A DNA stretch of 64,000 bases, taken from a virus (lineage: Duplodnaviria > Caudoviricetes). The stretch covers positions 1 to 64,000 of IMG/VR virus record IMGVR_UViG_3300033066_001295, one strand, 5' to 3'. Below are positions 26,476-44,587 of this stretch, piece after piece. The notes under the pieces were generated by a model. The model was not told the DNA's origin. It did not search any database and was given only the letters and a program-made list of their open reading frames with translations. A program made the translations under genes and the position numbers. Position 1 is the stretch's first letter. Each line of letters opens with the position of its first letter.

Positions 26476-26906
26476 CGCCTGCTGACACCATTGTGTCCTT
26501 CACCGGGCCTAACTTCTTTTTGAGCAACTTTTTCCCCTACGGTGTTTGGTATGGTGGAATGCTGTACCCATCAACTGAAAATGCATATCAGGCAGCCAAG
26601 TCGGAAGACTTGAGCATGAGGGAGAAGTTCATCTCTATATCTGCTGGTCAGGCAAAGCGTCTCGGAAAGAGCATCAAGTACCGGTCAGACTGGGAGAATG
26701 TCAAAGAAGGCATAATGTTGGAACTTAACCGGAAAAAGTTCTCTGATGGCTACCTGAGAAACCAGCTTGTAGCCACGGGAGACAGGGAAATCATCGAAGG
26801 CAACAATCATTATGATAAAATTTGGGGGGCTGTTTGGAATGGTAAGGAATGGGTTGGGGAAAACAAACTTGGAAAGATACTTATGCAGATCAGGTCTGAA
26901 CAATAG
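26472..26906 (+). CDS. NADAR family protein
   Basis: FLSNF, YPSTENAYQAAK, AKRLG, DW...K, KF, L.ATG..IIE, D..WG, GENKLG..LM. Confidence 0.92.
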   Translation: MTPADTIVSFTGPNFFLSNFFPYGVWYGGMLYPSTENAYQAAKSEDLSMREKFISISAGQAKRLGKSIKYRSDWENVKEGIMLELNRKKFSDGYLRNQLVATGDREIIEGNNHYDKIWGAVWNGKEWVGENKLGKILMQIRSEQ

Positions 26907-27540
26907 GTCGTCTCCATCCTTTGTGATGATTCCGTTCCCCCCTTAACACCAAGCATATCTTTGGCGGTGATAAATCATTTTCACGGCAAAATTTTCTGAA
27001 GTTTGTCACTCGGATTACCTGTCCATTGGGGGATACTAGAGTGCCTGATTTAACCTTATAACGTGTAGGTACAGCAACCTGTCTCCCAGCATAACGCTCT
27101 TTTAGTTTAACCCTACCTGACTCTGACATTTTTTTGCCCAAGTGGGATTTTTTCAGTCTTTCAATGGTCTCTGGTGTTGCTTTCCTCCCCAGCATCCTAG
27201 CCCTGATTTTTGTTTTTGATTCCTCTGAGAGAACCATTCTGCCCTGACCGGCTCTAAGGTTATAACCATTTGGAGACATCGTGTTTAATCGGCCTACCCA
27301 TAAAATTTCAGCATTATCAAGCTCCTCTTGTGTGCAGCAATCTGGCAGAGTTTGAAGGACCCTTATCTTGAATTTTAGCTCCCCATATTTTGATATAGCA
27401 TGAACGATTGGCATCTTTTTTCGGTTCTTCCACCTAGCTTCCCCACAATGTCTCGCAAACCTTTCATGCTCTGTCAGTCTGGTTTGACCTATGTACTCCT
27501 TGCTGTTTAATTCGTTTGATATTGCATATATAAGTGGCAT
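26890..27540 (-). CDS. GIY-YIG homing endonuclease with NUMOD3-like repeats
   Basis: IYAI...YIGQT, RF..H, GYN, SEESK.KI repeats, HHKGW. Confidence 0.88.
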   Translation of the reverse strand: MPLIYAISNELNSKEYIGQTRLTEHERFARHCGEARWKNRKKMPIVHAISKYGELKFKIRVLQTLPDCCTQEELDNAEILWVGRLNTMSPNGYNLRAGQGRMVLSEESKTKIRARMLGRKATPETIERLKKSHLGKKMSESGRVKLKERYAGRQVAVPTRYKVKSGTLVSPNGQVIRVTNFRKFCRENDLSPPKICLVLRGERNHHKGWRRPIVQT

Positions 27541-27702
27541 GTTAGATATATACTTTCCATCTAATCTGCCCAATAGTTACCTCCACAAAATGATAGCTTC
27601 TTGGGTGAGAAAGGGTACGTAATTCAATGGCAGAATGGCACGATTTCAACCGTCGCCGTAGTGAGTTCGATTCTCACCGTACCTTCCAATGTAGATATAG
27701 GC

Positions 27703-27984: not shown

Positions 27985-28431
27985 TTACTTCCAAATTTCA
28001 CTCACAACATCAGGTGGTGCATCTGGAAGCTGGCGTGGTATCTCAACACTCATCCTCGACCAGTCTGGCCTGCCTTTTTCGTCGGTAAGTACTGTGACAG
28101 TTGAACCCTGATCCCAAGGCTTGTTCCATGCCCCTCTTGAGCGACCAACCTCCCAGCCTTCTCCATCTTTAGCCACGAGGACATGCCCATAAAGGCCGAA
28201 GCTGTTGGCATTTTTTGATACTGCGACAACCTTGAAATCTTTTGATCCACTAGTGCTGACCAGAGTGGAGTCAGGACCAAACTCAAACAGCTTCACAAAA
28301 GACTCAGTGTGGGTAGCCTTCTCACCGGCAGTGTGCTCATCTGCTAGGCAGCTTTTGCACCTTGAAAACTCGCCGTATGAGGGTGTGAACATCTTCCCAC
28401 ACTTTTTGCATTTCACCTGTTTGTGCTCCAT
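27985..28431 (-). CDS. hypothetical protein with N-terminal zinc ribbon
   Basis: CKKC..CKSC, internal FVKLFE; TATTTAT 4 nt upstream. Confidence 0.65.
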   Translation of the reverse strand: MEHKQVKCKKCGKMFTPSYGEFSRCKSCLADEHTAGEKATHTESFVKLFEFGPDSTLVSTSGSKDFKVVAVSKNANSFGLYGHVLVAKDGEGWEVGRSRGAWNKPWDQGSTVTVLTDEKGRPDWSRMSVEIPRQLPDAPPDVVSEIWK

Positions 28432-28609: not shown

Positions 28610-29008
28610 ATGAACACAATCGAAAGAGTAAAGAGCAGAGCTAGGGACCGTCGTCTCTTCCTCAAAGTCAAAATCAAGAGCCTTGCTGAGGAGGCAAGGA
28701 TCATCAAGCACGCAGAGAAGAAGCACACATGGGTGTGTGAAGAACTCAGAATCCACAGGATTTGCGTTGTCAGGCTTGAAGCCAGAGCAACACACCTCGC
28801 CTATGGATTCATCCGTGGCAAGACACGCCAGCAGATCGAAGCCAAGCATCATCCACTTGGAGCCTATGGCAACAAGACGCTGCAAAGCAAGGTGAAGGCC
28901 ATGGTGGACAAGTATGGCAAGGTGTTTGACCCAGATATTGAGTGGAAGCAGAATGACCTGAACCACAAGGCACTCATGGAGCGTCTGGAAACTTGGTGGG
29001 CAGAATAA
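28610..29008 (+). CDS. conserved basic phage protein
   Basis: LKVKIKSLAEEARII, HR..VVR.EARATHLAYGFIRG. Confidence 0.7.
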   Translation: MNTIERVKSRARDRRLFLKVKIKSLAEEARIIKHAEKKHTWVCEELRIHRICVVRLEARATHLAYGFIRGKTRQQIEAKHHPLGAYGNKTLQSKVKAMVDKYGKVFDPDIEWKQNDLNHKALMERLETWWAE

Positions 29009-29084: not shown

Positions 29085-29113
29085 TTGATATTGTTTTGTG
29101 CTGATGATATAGT
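29085..29113 (+). promoter_or_regulatory. sigma70-like promoter of the RAMP-array locus
   Basis: TTGATA-17 nt-TATAGT, 7 nt before ATG 29121. Confidence 0.75.
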
Positions 29114-29120
29114 TCAAAAT

Positions 29121-29726
29121 ATGAAAAAACAAAAATCATCAGATACCGCTTCCACCATAACTATCCCAAAGCTTGACAAGCACATACTAAAGCTGACGAT
29201 AGTGGGAGAAAGTCCACTGATTCTCAACAAGTGGAGTGAAAAAAGTATAAAAGCCATTGAGGAAAAACAAGGTCGTACTGCTAAATCAATGGTCAAAGCC
29301 ATTCGAGTACCTGAAGAGGAAGTGCGTGAAGCCACTCACTTTATCCAAAGTGGACCACACAAAGGCAAACCGGGAATTCCTGCACTAGCATTCAAAAATG
29401 CAGCAGTTACAGCTTGCACAAGTTTAGGAAGAGACTTCCCAAAAACCAAAGCTCGTCAGGCTTTCCATGTCATAGGGGACATTCTCCCCATTAATGGTGA
29501 AATGTCTCCCAGAAAAGACACCATAACATACCCCAACGGTTCGGGTGGTCTAGCTTACAGACCATCTTGGAACAAGTGGAGTGTTGACCTCGACATCAGG
29601 TACAACTCAAATGTCATCAGCCCGGAACAGCTTGCCAGTCTTTTTAGTCTTGCTGGCTTTGCTGTTGGGGTGGGTTGTTGGCGTCCAGAAAAAAATGGAG
29701 ACAAGGGTCTTTTCAAGGTTGCATAA
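29121..29726 (+). CDS. stand-alone RAMP/Cas7-like protein (Vipr-like candidate RNA-guided effector)
   Basis: LKLTIVGESPLIL (RAMP first strand), PGIPALAFKNA (cf. Csm3/Cmr P.IPGSS.KG), C-terminal Gly loop GFAVGVGCWRPEKNGDKGLFKV; array starts at the base after the stop. Confidence 0.75.
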   Translation: MKKQKSSDTASTITIPKLDKHILKLTIVGESPLILNKWSEKSIKAIEEKQGRTAKSMVKAIRVPEEEVREATHFIQSGPHKGKPGIPALAFKNAAVTACTSLGRDFPKTKARQAFHVIGDILPINGEMSPRKDTITYPNGSGGLAYRPSWNKWSVDLDIRYNSNVISPEQLASLFSLAGFAVGVGCWRPEKNGDKGLFKVA

Positions 29727-30050
29727 CCTTGGTCATAGCTTGGTAAAGCAGCGTAATGTCTAGTGCAGAACAGCGTAGCGCAGCCAACCAACGTGAGGGG
29801 GAGAACGATACGCGCCCAACAATTTTCAAGGGTAAAACCTTGGTCAAAACAGAGCAATGCAAAGGTAGCAGAGTGAAGCTTAGCTGCGTGCAGTTGATCT
29901 CAGAAACGGGACGCCGATTGTTCGGCGTCCCAAATTTTTCAGTAACTTACAAGGGTAACACCTTGGTCAAAGAGCAGTGAAGCAAAACGCAGATTAGCTA
30001 TGTGCAGTTGATCAAAGGGAGACGCCGATTGTTCGGCGTCTCCCACAATT
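29727..30050 (+). ncRNA. three-unit guide-like RNA array: CCTTGGTCA-(AGY NN)n-hairpin
   Basis: CCTTGGTCA at 29727, 29838 and 29961; 5-nt periodic triplet/dinucleotide runs; perfect hairpins at 29908-29931 and 30017-30044. Confidence 0.8.
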
Positions 30051-30055
30051 TCCAA

Positions 30056-30574
30056 ATGAAAAAACCTAAAAAACCTAAAGTGTCTTTTGCCTCCATGCAT
30101 GGTAGGGGGTGTGTACTTACAGACGATCAAGCTCGTGAGATAGGTCCTGTGCTTGTGAGGATAGAGCAGAAAAATGGAGCTATCAAGCCTGCTACAGTAG
30201 TTCAAGAAGCATCATCACCATCTTCCCCGTTGCACAGCTATTTTACATGGGATGACACAGAAGCAGCTAAAAAGTGTAGGTTAGAGGAGGCTAGAAGTAT
30301 AATCAGGAGTGTCAGGATCATCCATGAAGACGCTCCTGATATTGTTGTCCATGCCTTTACAAGTGTAAAAGCTACCTCGAAAGAATCCAAGTTTTCGGGG
30401 TACGGGTACCTGAGTACACCTGCTGCTCTCAATAAAAAGGAGTACAAAGAGCAAGTTCTTAACACAGCCCTTTCAGAAATTGAAGTGTGGAAACGTCGTT
30501 ATAGCGGTTTAGTGGAGCTTGCATCAATTTGTGGTGCTATTGAGGCAACCATTAAAAAGCTCAAGAGAGTTTGA
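30056..30574 (+). CDS. phage protein directly downstream of the array (candidate accessory)
   Basis: G.I.P..VV..A..P.SPLH.YFTWDD..AA...R...AR.II; ATG 30056 follows the last hairpin. Confidence 0.75.
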   Translation: MKKPKKPKVSFASMHGRGCVLTDDQAREIGPVLVRIEQKNGAIKPATVVQEASSPSSPLHSYFTWDDTEAAKKCRLEEARSIIRSVRIIHEDAPDIVVHAFTSVKATSKESKFSGYGYLSTPAALNKKEYKEQVLNTALSEIEVWKRRYSGLVELASICGAIEATIKKLKRV

Positions 30575-30613: not shown

Positions 30614-31645
30614 CTAGGAAGTAATAGCAACCTCCATTTTGGCTAAAATAACTTCACCTATGCTTAACTCAAGAAAATCAGCGGCTGTAGCTTCTTTCCC
30701 AGAGCGAATATTATCGTGAACAATTGCTTCAGCAAGCCCATCACCAAGGGTGTAATAGATAGCTTCAATTACGTCCTTATTATTCTCGAACATACCAACC
30801 CCATTTTGGTACATTACAGGTTGTTGTTTAATCTCCGGGAATTGCCCACTCTCCCACATCTCTGTCAACTCCCTGACAGCCATCTCCCAATGCAGTCTTT
30901 CTTTATCTGAAATTTTCAGTGTCTTCATGTTAAATAATAGCATATTTCTCTGGTGAGTGCAAACCCCATTACCCATCCGGGCTGAATGATTGCAGTTATG
31001 GCAGAGGACCCGGTAGTCTGGAGGGAAACCAGCTTTGATGATGTGGGAGTAAAGGATATTGGTGACCTGATTCACTTTTCTCATTTTGCTGCCACCACCT
31101 GCCACATGATCTATTGCTAACTTAAAAGGATCATCTTCTCCACAGCAAGAGCACTTGTTGCCATAGTGTTGAAGAACGATGGATCGCTGTTTTCTGAAGG
31201 TGCGGGCTGCCCCGCTGAGGCCATCCTTTAACCTAGCCTCCAAGCTCTTCTTGACGTTGCAGCTAAAGCATAAACACTGTAACACAGGAGGAAAGTTATT
31301 TTTGATTGCCCACCTGTACATGTTATTTTTTACTTCAGCACGATGAGTCACACCATCGTCATTTACATGGTCCAGAGTAAGCATCTCCAGCATGGTTTCA
31401 GGACAATGCTGGCACTTTCCACCATATCCAGCCATCACCTTTGTCTTTAGCCTTTGCTGCTTGGCTCTTGCTAACTCAGCAACCCTACCAGAGTGTTCCT
31501 TGCAGTATTTCCTGTGGTAAGCTCTACGCTCCTCAATGGTCTGTTTTGGTCTTGATCCTTTTATGAGACCCTTTTCTCTTCTCCAATTTCGGAGATACTG
31601 AATGCGTTCTTCTCTTGATGCAAAAGGCATATAGTTCGATAGCAT
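30614..31645 (-). CDS. tandem-domain HNH-like endonuclease
   Basis: Two copies of YG.KC..C...L..DHV......LC..CN. Confidence 0.8.
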   Translation of the reverse strand: MLSNYMPFASREERIQYLRNWRREKGLIKGSRPKQTIEERRAYHRKYCKEHSGRVAELARAKQQRLKTKVMAGYGGKCQHCPETMLEMLTLDHVNDDGVTHRAEVKNNMYRWAIKNNFPPVLQCLCFSCNVKKSLEARLKDGLSGAARTFRKQRSIVLQHYGNKCSCCGEDDPFKLAIDHVAGGGSKMRKVNQVTNILYSHIIKAGFPPDYRVLCHNCNHSARMGNGVCTHQRNMLLFNMKTLKISDKERLHWEMAVRELTEMWESGQFPEIKQQPVMYQNGVGMFENNKDVIEAIYYTLGDGLAEAIVHDNIRSGKEATAADFLELSIGEVILAKMEVAITS

Positions 31646-43316: not shown

Positions 43317-44564
43317 CTACTGGGCTGGTGCTGGCTGGGCTTGAGGGAGAGCTTGAGGTGCTTGAGCTTGGGGGAGAGCTTGTGGGGCCTGAGCTTGAGG
43401 TGCTTGAGCTTTCGCATTTATCTTTGACACAACAGCGTCAGCATTATCGGCCATTGCCTTGCCCATGGAGGCTAGTTTACCGCAAACTGCGTCTGAGAGG
43501 GAATCTGTAAGGTTCTGAATGAACTTTATGCTCTTCAGTGAGTTGCTGAAGATGATTGATACTACCGATCCTGCCAGTGTCTGGCCTATCTCAGTAGCCT
43601 GCATGAGATAGTTGGGCAGTGCTTTTGCCAAAACACCAACTAAGAATCGGCAATCTGTAAACAATTTTGGTAGCTCAAAAACACCAACTTCAGAAAGAGC
43701 TATGGCGATGTACTTGGCAAGGCCATGTGATGGGTCAAGGCCAAGCATTCCAAGAATCTTGGTAGCAACCATCTGCTTCAGTAGCTGAAACCCTCCATGG
43801 GTTACTTTTGAGAACAGGTTACCTAGAACCCCAAACAAACCTTTTCCGGCAGAAATAGCCGTTGGGTTTATACCGGCAGTTTGCATTGCTACATCGCCAA
43901 AACCCTCACAGATTGCCCTAGCTACACCCTCTTCAATAAACTCTGCTGGGACTCCGGCATCTTGCCAGACCTTAACCTGCTCGTAGATGCGGTTAACACT
44001 AGCATAGCTTATGGTTATCTTGCTCTCAGCTAGAGTACGGGCACGCTTGAACATGGGAGCCAAGCTCTCCTGTATCTTAACCACTATCTCAGGTGACTGG
44101 CCTTTGGCAAATGCTTCCAAGCTCTCAACTGAGTACCTAGTCGAGTTTTCAAGAAAGTACTCAGCACTTATGCACTCAGTCTTCTCACTCCTGCTCTTCT
44201 TATCCTTCTCAAAAGCGTCTTTGTTGAGCTTTTTGAGACGGCTTCTCAGAGCACTTGGCGAGAAGCCAATGATCTTGTCACTTTTCAGCATACTCACTAT
44301 CTGAGATGCTGACAGGCTGTTGATGTCTTTGGATGACATTGTTAAGCAGGGATTGCCCTGTCTAGTCGAGTTTTCAAGAAAGTACTCAGCACTTATGCAC
44401 TCAGTCTTCTCACTCCTGCTCTTCTTATCCTTCTCAAAAGCGTCTTTGTTGAGCTTTTTGAGACGGCTTCTCAGAGCACTTGGCGAGAAGCCAATGATCT
44501 TGTCACTTTTCAGCATACTCACTATCTGAGATGCTGACAGGCTGTTGATGTCTTTGGATGACAT
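43317..44564 (-). CDS. hypothetical protein with duplicated N-terminus
   Basis: 415 aa; N-terminus duplicated by a 225 bp repeat; QAPQA C-terminal repeats. Confidence 0.65.
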   Translation of the reverse strand: MSSKDINSLSASQIVSMLKSDKIIGFSPSALRSRLKKLNKDAFEKDKKSRSEKTECISAEYFLENSTRQGNPCLTMSSKDINSLSASQIVSMLKSDKIIGFSPSALRSRLKKLNKDAFEKDKKSRSEKTECISAEYFLENSTRYSVESLEAFAKGQSPEIVVKIQESLAPMFKRARTLAESKITISYASVNRIYEQVKVWQDAGVPAEFIEEGVARAICEGFGDVAMQTAGINPTAISAGKGLFGVLGNLFSKVTHGGFQLLKQMVATKILGMLGLDPSHGLAKYIAIALSEVGVFELPKLFTDCRFLVGVLAKALPNYLMQATEIGQTLAGSVVSIIFSNSLKSIKFIQNLTDSLSDAVCGKLASMGKAMADNADAVVSKINAKAQAPQAQAPQALPQAQAPQALPQAQPAPAQ

Positions 44565-44587
44565 TGTTAAGCAGGGATTGCCCTGTC
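44137..44587. repeat. perfect 225 bp tandem duplication
   Basis: 44137-44361 appears identical to 44362-44586. Confidence 0.95.

What the first reader, a model, noticed from the sequence alone, without database searches (positions are those of the whole stretch)
29085..30574. Stand-alone RAMP/Cas7-like gene + non-CRISPR guide-like array + accessory gene: candidate phage RNA-guided system (VIPR-like)
Seen: one promoter drives a ~201 aa protein with RAMP hallmarks (TIVGESPLIL, PGIPALAFKN, C-terminal Gly loop GVGCWRPEKNGDKG). A ~325 bp three-unit non-coding array begins at the base after its stop codon, and a further ORF follows. No cas1/2/3/5/6/10 or canonical CRISPR is visible in the window. 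Known: Cas7-type RAMPs polymerise along a guide RNA with a fixed nucleotide footprint per subunit. Inference: one subunit binds each 5-nt unit, holding the constant triplet and exposing the variable dinucleotide to read a target. From memory, and not verifiable here, this matches the recently reported phage VIPR architecture (GGY/NN guides); this locus would be an AGY/NN variant. No nuclease is evident, so silencing or blocking of rival phage or host DNA is more plausible than cleavage.
Basis: partly seen in the sequence, partly recalled or inferred. Interest (0 to 1): 0.96.

Follow-up and report, generated by a model that had tools for sequence, protein, structure and literature searches.

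The report
Phage VIPR system with AGY-type guides
This 208-kb uncultivated phage carries a complete VIPR system, a CRISPR-related RNA-guided silencer first described in 2026 preprints; it is unusual in that its guide repeats use A-G-Y instead of G-G-Y, and one guide matches the replicase gene of an RNA phage.

Summary
Window 29085-30574 is a VIPR locus: promoter-like site, vipr (29121-29726), three vrRNA units (29726-30055) and a conserved accessory gene (30056-30574).

The 201-aa protein has a Cas7/Csm3 RAMP fold (Z 11). It matches SUSP1-type Vipr (PDB 36pp) by sequence and by profile (hhalign 97%). About 70 of 86 relatives' loci carry GGY/NN pentamer arrays and the same accessory gene. VIPR is already in print, and this scan has found it on other DNA, so the kind is known.

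Three things are new.
- **Scaffold.** The repeat is A-G-Y-N-N: A at about 65-80% of position 1, G at about 5%. In 68 relatives G is at a median 91%.
- **Protein pocket.** The two residues that read G1 in the SUSP1 structure (H17, D177) are N36 and C186 here, while the G2 and Y3 contacts are kept. Three other lineages that lost the acidic residue also show raised A1.
- **Candidate target.** vrRNA1 is far better conserved than the neighbouring gene. Under the published 1-nt-skip rule, 12 consecutive units match a levivirus RNA-replicase motif in frame (chance about 0.001-0.01). This is unproven.

No RNA or binding data exist.

The parts
29085..29113 (+). sigma-70-like promoter candidate upstream of vipr
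   Evidence: TTGATA-17-TATAGT with TG, 10/12. The 100 bases upstream of vipr are 97% identical in L081. This is a consensus match only.
29121..29726 (+). vipr: 201-aa Cas7-like RAMP (Vipr), with G-loop GVGCWRPEKNG at residues 183-193
   Evidence: phmmer to PDB 36pp 'SUSP1 Vipr protein' gives E 1.4e-4; the profile gives 1.7e-7. hhalign to SUSP1-type Vipr of phage ekra gives prob 97.2%, E 3.4e-11, over residues 22-201. AF2 pLDDT is 80.5. Foldseek and VIA top hits are all Csm3/Cmr4/Cas7, Z up to 11.0. It matches phrog_4652. The family has 5549 representative clusters.
29713..29736 (+). small hairpin CAAGG-loop-CCTTGG plus TCA, preceding tract 1; the same element recurs at 29826-29847 and 29949-29970
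   Evidence: Predicted in all three folds. The ACCTTGGTCA motif occurs at 29726, 29837 and 29960 and only once elsewhere in 208 kb. Its role (5' handle, processing site or part of the preceding tail) is unknown.
29737..29801 (+). vrRNA1 pentamer tract, 13 units (A/N)GY-NN; units 2-13 are the candidate 12-unit guide
   Evidence: NGYNN 9/10 is the unique maximum of the window. The whole unit is 106/111 identical to L081, against 83.7% for vipr DNA.
29802..29836 (+). vrRNA1 3' part (weak GC stem, AATTTT, start of the next hairpin)
   Evidence: Identical in L081 and L082. The fold is not better than shuffles.
29848..29906 (+). vrRNA2 pentamer tract, about 12 units with one 4-nt unit at 29863-29866
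   Evidence: AGYNN and AGNNN maxima lie at 29847-29867. Registered by eye.
29908..29931 (+). vrRNA2 3' hairpin (10-bp GC-rich stem, loop of 4) followed by AAATTTTT
   Evidence: Terminator-like site. The unit's fold has z -4.5.
29971..30020 (+). vrRNA3 pentamer tract, 10 units
   Evidence: AGNNN 7/10 at 29961-29976. Top information-content window of the region.
30017..30044 (+). vrRNA3 3' hairpin (12-bp stem), the same core as in vrRNA2
   Evidence: The 20-nt core is repeated at 29910 and 30021 only. The fold has z -5.3.
30056..30574 (+). vap: 172-aa VIPR accessory protein of unknown fold class (phrog_15946)
   Evidence: tblastn finds homologues in 73 of the locus entries searched, next to vipr. 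AF2 pLDDT is 91. There is no convincing PDB match, only weak winged-helix/RepA hints. There is no homology to SUSP1-type vap1 (hhalign prob 0.2%).

Best explanation
The locus is a functional VIPR (Viral Interference Programmable Repeat) system of a large T4-like phage. One operon encodes Vipr, three vrRNAs and a Vap accessory protein.

By homology with the SUSP1 system, Vipr protomers polymerise along each vrRNA, one per pentamer. Each protomer pair buries the constant triplet and presents the two variable bases. The concatenated dinucleotides then read a target in which every third base is skipped. Binding silences the target rather than cutting it.

The particular feature here is the scaffold A-G-Y instead of G-G-Y. 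The two residues that hydrogen-bond G1 in SUSP1 Vipr (H17 in the RRM sheet, D177 in the G-loop) are Asn36 and Cys186 here. The G2 contacts (R138/W178, here R147/W187) and the Y3 contact (R179, here R188) are retained. The position-1 pocket has therefore most likely been re-specified from G to A.

Shown here: homology, fold, array periodicity, family-wide synteny, residue/base covariation and purifying selection on vrRNA1. Inferred: transcription and processing of the vrRNAs, filament formation, the skip rule, silencing, and the causal role of N36/C186.
For: - **Protein.** PDB 36pp SUSP1 Vipr is hit at E 1.4e-4, and at 1.7e-7 with the profile. hhalign to the full-length SUSP1-type Vipr gives 97.2%. 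The fold matches Csm3/Cmr4/Cas7 at Z 8-11, and CRISPR RAMPs fill the top 29 rows.
- **Family context.** Of 80 IMG/VR relatives, nearly all have GGYNN arrays on the vipr strand. The downstream ORF is the conserved neighbour in 73 locus entries. The nearest clade (L084, L086, 49% identity) shares the order vipr-array-vap.
- **Array.** It is the unique NGYNN maximum. Its composition is A 79%, G 85%, Y 85%, N, N.
- **Covariation.** In 68 loci with E or D at position 186, G1 has median 91% and A1 has median 2%, maximum 17%. The four lineages without an acidic residue have A1 of 65% (C186, this one), 41% (V186, L087), 26% (A186, L088) and 3/7 (A186, L050). In a FastTree tree each of these lineages has E/D-bearing nearest neighbours. 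Locus G+C does not explain the effect (r -0.03; loci at 46-50% GC with E186 have G1 of 88-100%). Position 186 is E or D in 262 of 269 aligned members.
- **Selection.** Between the window and L081, vipr DNA is 83.7% identical, with 71 of 99 differences at third codon positions and 60 synonymous versus 20 non-synonymous codons. The non-coding vrRNA1 unit is 95.5% identical. Three of its five changes keep NGY (A to G at position 1, and two Y-to-Y changes). Unit 2 is replaced, and the unit number differs (2 versus 3), as expected for guide turnover.
- **No CRISPR-Cas.** No Cas1 or Pfam RAMP match and no CRISPR-like array in the genome.
Against: There is no expression, processing or binding data for this locus.

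The C186 lineage has only three known contigs, so its own covariation is a single evolutionary event. L088 (A186) still has G at 61% of position 1, so loss of the acidic residue relaxes G1 rather than dictating A. N36 also occurs with E186 in GG-type loci such as L086.

The H17-to-N36 equivalence rests on a profile alignment with low local confidence.

Units 2 and 3 are irregular: one 4-nt unit, and shared 3' pentamers. The vrRNA ends cannot be set from sequence.

No target was found for vrRNA2 or vrRNA3.

The 1-nt skip rule has been shown only for type II systems.
Confidence: 0.9

Rival explanations
1. The array is a decaying or inactive relic of a GGY-type VIPR array, and A at position 1 is mutational drift in a moderately AT-rich phage.
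For: Units 2 and 3 are irregular. No targets were found for them. The lineage is rare, with three contigs.
Against: vrRNA1 is 95.5% conserved where synonymous sites of the adjacent gene have diverged by about 35%. vipr is under purifying selection, 60 synonymous versus 20 non-synonymous codons. The A is position-specific, while G2 and Y3 stay at 85%. Relatives of equal G+C keep GGY. The protein's G1 contacts changed in step.
Confidence: 0.05
2. The 330-bp stretch is not a guide array. It is either a small protein gene (the 74-aa ORF at 29756-29980) or only a pair of terminators or attenuators between two unrelated genes.
For: An ATG ORF exists and was called as a gene on L082. A terminator-like hairpin lies at 29908-29931.
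Against: No gene is called in the corresponding stretch of L081, where the array has only two units. A 5-nt period is incompatible with coding. The same position in dozens of relatives holds pentamer arrays. The two flanking genes are a conserved pair.
Confidence: 0.03
3. The system works like VIPR, but its natural targets are RNA, not DNA. Its guides would pair with the minus strand or replicative form of a co-infecting ssRNA phage.
For: Twelve consecutive units of vrRNA1 match a levivirus replicase gene in frame, and no such match exists in 596 Gb of prokaryotic DNA. Cas7-family RAMPs of type III systems bind RNA targets (established knowledge).
Against: This is a single match with chance about 0.001-0.01. 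vrRNA2 and vrRNA3 have no match. The published VIPR mechanism needs both DNA strands, as a triplex with the non-target strand (10.64898/2026.04.26.720927). The guide has the same sense as the phage plus strand, so it could pair only with the rare minus strand.
Confidence: 0.3

Closest known systems
Type II VIPR of Escherichia phage SUSP1 and related Felixounaviruses (Vipr + vap1 + four vrRNAs; bioRxiv 10.64898/2026.04.26.720920 and 10.64898/2026.04.26.720927; PDB 36pp)
   Same: Both have a small single-RRM RAMP with G-loop and thumb, homologous over the full length (hhalign 97%). Both are phage-encoded. Both are minimal two-gene loci with same-strand arrays of about 100-nt units made of roughly 12 pentamers plus a structured 3' end. 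Neither has cas genes or a system nuclease. R138/W178/R179 are conserved as R147/W187/R188.
   Different: The scaffold is AGY, not GGY. The G1 contacts H17 and D177 are N36 and C186. The accessory protein is unrelated to vap1. The gene order is vipr-array-vap instead of vrRNA-vipr-vap1-array. The 3' ends are simple hairpins, and no pseudoknot was detected. tblastn at E 0.001 does not reach SUSP1-type phages.
The phrog_4652/phrog_15946 Vipr-Vap clade of Mycobacterium, Gordonia and cyano-phages and hundreds of IMG/VR contigs
   Same: The same Vipr family (29-49% identity) and the same Vap family, adjacent, with pentamer arrays on the same strand.
   Different: Those loci use GGY (G1 median 91%) and carry E or D at position 186. 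Most place the array after vap. The published type number (I-VII) of this clade could not be determined, because the paper's supplement is not held.
Alternative vrRNA repeats noted in the VIPR preprint (NNNGG, YNNNG, NNNNG)
   Same: AGY/NN written from the pyrimidine is YNNAG, a case of YNNNG.
   Different: The preprint text held here gives no base preference at the relaxed position and no protein correlate. Here the position is specifically A and co-varies with the G-loop residue.
Cas7/Csm3/Cmr4 backbone subunits of class 1 CRISPR effectors
   Same: The fold is shared (Z 8-11), and both polymerise along a guide with a thumb that periodically flips bases.
   Different: Sequence identity is about 10%. 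There is no second RRM, no Cas5/Cas6/Cas10/Cas1 and no CRISPR repeats. The footprint is 5 nt with three bases sequestered, instead of 6 nt with one.

Membership tests
VIPR system | Vipr protein: minimal RAMP (RRM core, glycine-rich loop, thumb) homologous to published Vipr | tested here: met
   PDB 36pp SUSP1 Vipr at E 1.4e-4, 1.7e-7 with the profile. hhalign 97.2% over residues 22-201. Csm3/Cas7 fold at Z 11.0, rmsd 3.6 over 147 residues. The G-loop and the thumb Arg align.
VIPR system | Not part of a CRISPR-Cas locus (no CRISPR array, no other cas genes) | tested here: met
   No Cas1 (PF01867) or Pfam RAMP (PF03787) match in the 207.8-kb record. TRF finds no CRISPR-like array. PADLOC has no hit. 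Other cas families were not searched one by one.
VIPR system | vrRNA genes: tracts of 9-16 tandem pentamers with a constant GGY (or related) triplet and variable NN, followed by a structured 3' tail | tested here: met
   Three tracts of about 10-13 units, with A 79% / G 85% / Y 85% / N / N. 3' hairpins in units 2 and 3 have z -4.5 and -5.3. The triplet is AGY, a related consensus of the YNNNG kind. Unit 1's tail is not significantly structured.
VIPR system | Adjacent conserved accessory gene (vap) | tested here: met
   Homologues lie beside vipr in 73 locus entries, including isolated Mycobacterium and Gordonia phages.
VIPR system | vrRNAs are expressed and co-purify with Vipr | not testable with these tools
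   Needs small-RNA sequencing and a pull-down.
VIPR system | Target recognition by NN dinucleotides with one skipped base; transcriptional silencing of dsDNA | tested here: inconclusive
   No self-target beyond shuffles, as published for other VIPRs. One 12-unit match under the rule was found, but in an RNA-phage gene. There were no exact DNA targets in the viral, metagenome or genome collections.
Type II VIPR (SUSP1 / P. fulva clade) | vap1 accessory gene and Vipr of the SUSP1 clade | tested here: not met
   The Vap family profile against SUSP1-type vap1 gives hhalign prob 0.2%. The Vipr is only distantly related, and tblastn does not reach SUSP1-type phages.
Class 1 CRISPR-Cas effector (Cas7 backbone) | Cas7 together with Cas5/Cas6/large subunit and a CRISPR array | tested here: not met
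   Fold only. No CRISPR-like array, Cas1 or Pfam RAMP match in the genome; Cas5, Cas6 and large-subunit families were not searched individually.

The most novel reading that the evidence does not exclude
vrRNA1 may be aimed at a single-stranded RNA phage. Read by the published 1-nt-skip rule, units 2-13 reproduce codon positions 1-2 of twelve consecutive codons, NRKLA(A/T)VAQKDG. These lie immediately upstream of catalytic motif A in the RNA replicase of an uncultivated levivirus (L097:2469-2504). If real, a DNA phage would use a VIPR guide against an RNA-phage competitor. VIPR would then have to act on RNA (the minus strand or replicative form), a target class not reported for these systems. 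Separately, the N36/C186 pair would be a natural re-coding of the scaffold pocket from G to A.
Probability: 0.3. Interest if true: 0.85.

Novelty: new variant of a known kind. Interest (0 to 1): 0.55.

Why it matters
VIPR itself is published, so this locus does not reveal a new kind of system. It does offer two testable handles.

First, it is a natural scaffold variant. Both protein contacts to repeat base 1 and the base itself have changed together, while the contacts to bases 2 and 3 and those bases stayed the same. That is a ready-made experiment on how Vipr reads its repeat. It also suggests that orthogonal Vipr/vrRNA pairs (AGY versus GGY) could coexist in one cell without cross-loading. 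This matters both for phage-phage conflict, where rivals hijack each other's Vipr with solo guides, and for tool building.

Second, the only strong guide match is to the replicase of an ssRNA phage. If genuine, it would extend VIPR targets from DNA elements to RNA viruses, and would link a Cas7 ancestor to RNA targeting, as in type III CRISPR systems.

Tried and rejected
- **Family libraries.** Pfam, NCBIfam and PADLOC gave nothing for Vipr or Vap.
- **Nucleotide search.** blastn of the locus against isolated phages found no match.
- **Periodicity.** A generic Fourier period-5 scan was not discriminating.
- **Rfam.** No ribozyme or known RNA in the array, only a sub-threshold ar15 hit, so this is not a hammerhead-interspersed array.
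- **More C186-lineage members.** A single-protein scan of IMG/VR found none. The 20-nt tail core found none in IMG/VR and four unrelated chance hits in metagenomes.
- **Target searches under the 1-nt-skip rule.** In the phage's own genome, skips of 0-2 were no better than shuffled guides. Exact 12-unit vrRNA1 gave 0 hits in the viral, genome and metagenome collections. Exact 10-unit vrRNA3 gave 0. A 9-unit vrRNA1 core gave 0. vrRNA2 and vrRNA3 against L097 and 79 related leviviruses were no better than shuffles.
- **Vap fold.** Foldseek against PDB gave nothing at E <= 0.001. VIA-wide gave at best Z 6.6, on the C-terminal helical hairpin only. The ESM Atlas returned only viral hypothetical clusters plus RepA at TM 0.34. 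'DNA-binding winged helix' is therefore a hint, not a finding.
- **HNH gene as part of the system.** The HNH gene at 30614-31645 was considered and rejected, because it is absent from the other Vipr-family loci searched.
- **Sample origin.** Sample identifiers were not found in the paper library.
- **Not run.** No complex prediction was run, because no protein-protein binding is claimed.
Full report
**What is in the sequence.** The finding covers an operon-like stretch:
- a sigma-70-like site at 29085-29113 (10/12 with a TG);
- a 201-codon ORF at 29121-29726;
- 330 non-coding bases at 29726-30055;
- a 172-codon ORF at 30056-30574.

The non-coding stretch splits into three units. Each opens with ACCTTGGTCA, at 29726, 29837 and 29960. 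This motif closes a small CAAGG/CCTTG hairpin. Each unit then runs as 5-nt repeats. Units 2 and 3 end in a strong GC-rich hairpin with the same 20-nt core (fold z -4.5 and -5.3).

**Is the periodicity more than chance?** The motif-specific signal is. NGYNN in 9 of 10 consecutive pentamers is the unique maximum of the window on both strands. In the whole 207.8-kb record, 8 or more of 10 occurs only there and at one other site. AGNNN maxima fall in all three units. An unbiased information-content scan picks the same registers. A generic Fourier measure was not outstanding. Over 33 hand-registered units the composition is A 79%, G 85%, Y 85%, then two variable positions. Unit 2 has one 4-nt unit, and the last 3-4 pentamers of units 2 and 3 are shared. 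The exact guide and tail borders therefore cannot be read from DNA.

**The protein.** No Pfam, NCBIfam or PADLOC family matches it. PHROGs gives phrog_4652, of unknown function.

The evidence that it is a Vipr is as follows:
- phmmer against PDB sequences hits one meaningful entry, 36pp 'SUSP1 Vipr protein' (E 1.4e-4), across the C-terminal strand-helix-G-loop. A 27-member profile improves this to 1.7e-7.
- I fetched a SUSP1-type locus from Escherichia phage ekra. hhalign of the family profile against that full Vipr gives 97.2% probability and E 3.4e-11 over residues 22-201.
- The AlphaFold2 model (pLDDT 80.5) matches Csm3, Cmr4, gRAMP Cas7 domains and other CRISPR RAMPs. Foldseek gives probability 1.00, and VIA Z reaches 11.0.

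The family is very large. It has 620 hits in the word-indexed search and 5549 representative clusters at E <= 0.001. Among isolates it occurs in Mycobacterium, Gordonia, cyano- and Pseudomonas phages.

**The literature.** It is described in three bioRxiv preprints:
- 10.64898/2026.04.26.720920 reports the discovery, the GGY/NN vrRNAs, the 1-nt skip rule, silencing of rival elements and seven types.
- 10.64898/2026.04.26.720927 reports the cryo-EM structures.
- 10.64898/2026.10.15.759431 reports phage-satellite competition.

These were read. The authors also note alternative repeats NNNGG, YNNNG and NNNNG. This scan has already reported several VIPR loci on other DNA, including a CGC-scaffold one.

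**Relatives.** In 80 IMG/VR loci encoding relatives, nearly all carry GGYNN arrays on the vipr strand, usually 0.5-1.5 kb downstream. The ORF after our array is homologous to the gene next to vipr in 73 locus entries, and in isolated actinophages. It is therefore the system's Vap.

Most relatives are ordered vipr-vap-array. The closest clade (L084, L086; 49% identity) and a few others share our order, vipr-array-vap.

The Vap model is confident (pLDDT 91) but has no convincing solved relative. There are only weak winged-helix or RepA-like hints. It is unrelated to SUSP1-type vap1, so the locus is not a type II VIPR. Its published type number could not be assigned, because the supplement is not held.

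The genome is a 94%-complete viral record. Its T4-like capsid protein is at most 35% identical to that of any isolate. No Cas1 or Pfam RAMP match and no CRISPR-like array were found in it. An HNH gene lies convergent to vap. It recurs in no other locus and is probably a homing endonuclease.

**The AGY scaffold and its protein correlate.** In the SUSP1 structure, G1 is read by H17 and D177, G2 by R138 and W178, and Y3 by R179 among others. The alignments give these equivalents here:

| SUSP1 residue | Base read | Residue here |
|---|---|---|
| H17 | G1 | N36 |
| D177 | G1 | C186 |
| R138 | G2 | R147 |
| W178 | G2 | W187 |
| R179 | Y3 | R188 |

Both G1 contacts differ and the G2 and Y3 contacts are kept. 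This mirrors the RNA: position 1 has changed to A, while positions 2 and 3 are conserved.

Position 186 is E or D in 262 of 269 aligned family members. It is C only in this phage and its two near-identical relatives.

I tallied position 1 in dense NGY tracts around each vipr:

| Lineage | Residue at 186 | G1 | A1 |
|---|---|---|---|
| 68 loci | E or D | median 91% | median 2%, maximum 17% |
| this locus | C | 6% | 65% |
| L087 | V | 41% | 41% |
| L088 | A | 61% | 26% |
| L050 | A | 2 of 7 | 3 of 7 |

All four non-acidic lineages exceed the maximum A1 of the 68 acidic loci. In a FastTree tree their nearest neighbours carry E or D, so the losses look independent. This is a short protein with long branches, so the tree is only indicative. 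Three of the four also have N36, which is present in only about 11% of the family. Base composition is not the cause (r -0.03; E186 loci at 46-50% GC keep G1 at 88-100%).

There are caveats. L088 shows that loss of the acidic residue relaxes G1 rather than fixing A. The A-specific state is known from one small lineage. Causality is inferred.

**Is the array functional?** I compared the window with L081, whose Vipr is 91% identical. The vipr DNA is 83.7% identical, with 71 of 99 differences at third codon positions and 60 synonymous versus 20 non-synonymous codons. The non-coding vrRNA1 unit is 106/111 identical. Of its five changes, three keep the NGY pattern, one is in an NN pair and one is in an already degenerate triplet. 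vrRNA1 is therefore under stronger constraint than synonymous sites.

The second unit of L081 has a different variable tract, and that array has two units instead of three. This is the turnover expected of guides. The 74-aa ORF inside the array has no called counterpart in L081.

**Targets.** I applied the published rule: replace each triplet by one wildcard, keep NN, and search both strands. The phage's own genome holds no match better than shuffled guides. Exact full-length patterns found nothing in the viral, genome or metagenome collections.

An 8-unit core of vrRNA1 gave 24 IMG/VR hits, about the number expected by chance. Their flanks match at the random 25% level, with one exception. 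In L097, units 2-13 match at 23 of 24 positions for the window's guide and 24 of 24 for the L081 variant. Unit-shuffled guides reach at most 18-19 of 26 on that contig.

L097 is a 3.45-kb levivirus genome. The site lies in its replicase (PF03431, E 9e-87), in frame, with every skipped base at a wobble position. It spells NRKLAAVAQKDG, just upstream of the DLSSASD motif. The homologous segment is a conserved motif, NR.LA..AQ..G, in related leviviruses, which score 18-19 of 26.

The chance expectation is about 0.001 under a uniform model. That figure comes from 16 distinct core hits, five ways to add four units, and 4^-8 per way. It may be up to about 0.01 allowing for codon bias. The same 12-unit pattern is absent from 596 Gb of prokaryotic genomes.

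Several points argue against taking it as established. It is one guide and one contig. vrRNA2 and vrRNA3 have no match. The published mechanism uses both DNA strands. The guide has the sense of the viral plus strand, so it could pair only with the minus strand or a duplex form. I report it as a candidate, at about 30%.

**Verdict.** The locus is a member of the published VIPR kind, in a non-type-II clade. It has a variant AGY scaffold that co-varies with the G1-reading residues, and it has an unexpected candidate RNA-phage target. Interest is moderate as a whole, and would be high if the RNA-phage target or the specificity switch is borne out.

Noticed in passing
L097:2469-2504 (IMGVR_UViG_3300019247_000202): Twelve consecutive NN pairs of vrRNA1 (units 2-13) match, in frame, a conserved motif of a levivirus RNA replicase just upstream of the DLSSASD motif. 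Chance is about 0.001-0.01. The guide has the same sense as the plus strand.
   Followed up: partly
same genome, outside the window: G000 C1:168215-168300: This is the only other place in the 208-kb genome with NGYNN in 8 of 10 pentamers. Position 1 is mixed, and a short hairpin (ACGGGT-TTTGC-ACCCGT) follows. It lies inside a 107-codon open frame. It could be a solo vrRNA-like element or coincidence.
   Followed up: partly
window 30614-31645 (-): A 343-aa protein matches several PHROG HNH-endonuclease families, with two matched stretches for the best one (phrog_2255) and no Pfam hit. It is convergent to vap and absent from the other Vipr-family loci searched (L001-L088). It is probably a homing endonuclease.
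   Followed up: partly
window 26890-27573 (-): GIY-YIG endonuclease with an I-HmuI NUMOD-like C-terminus (Pfam), a second homing-endonuclease-type gene 1.5 kb upstream of the VIPR locus.
   Followed up: no
window 44137-44587: A perfect 225-bp tandem duplication (2.0 copies, 100% match) reported by TRF.
   Followed up: no
L084:4649-5041 and L086:4622-4982: The nearest E186 relatives have GG-based arrays between vipr and vap in which 4-nt and 5-nt GG spacings alternate (for example GGCA GGCGT GGATC). This may be the 'staggered/overlapping' array type mentioned in the preprint.
   Followed up: no
L050:4604-4784; L087:4526-5816; L088:3746-4956: Three other Vipr lineages lack the acidic G-loop residue (A, V, A at position 186). 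They have relaxed or A-enriched repeat position 1. They are useful comparators for the scaffold code.
   Followed up: partly
window 28610-29008 (+) and 27985-28431 (-): The genes flanking the locus upstream have no Pfam hit, and the two submitted to PHROGs (28610-29008 and 27985-28431) have no hit there either. The 132-aa ORF just upstream of vipr is also present on L082, but its function is unknown.
   Followed up: no
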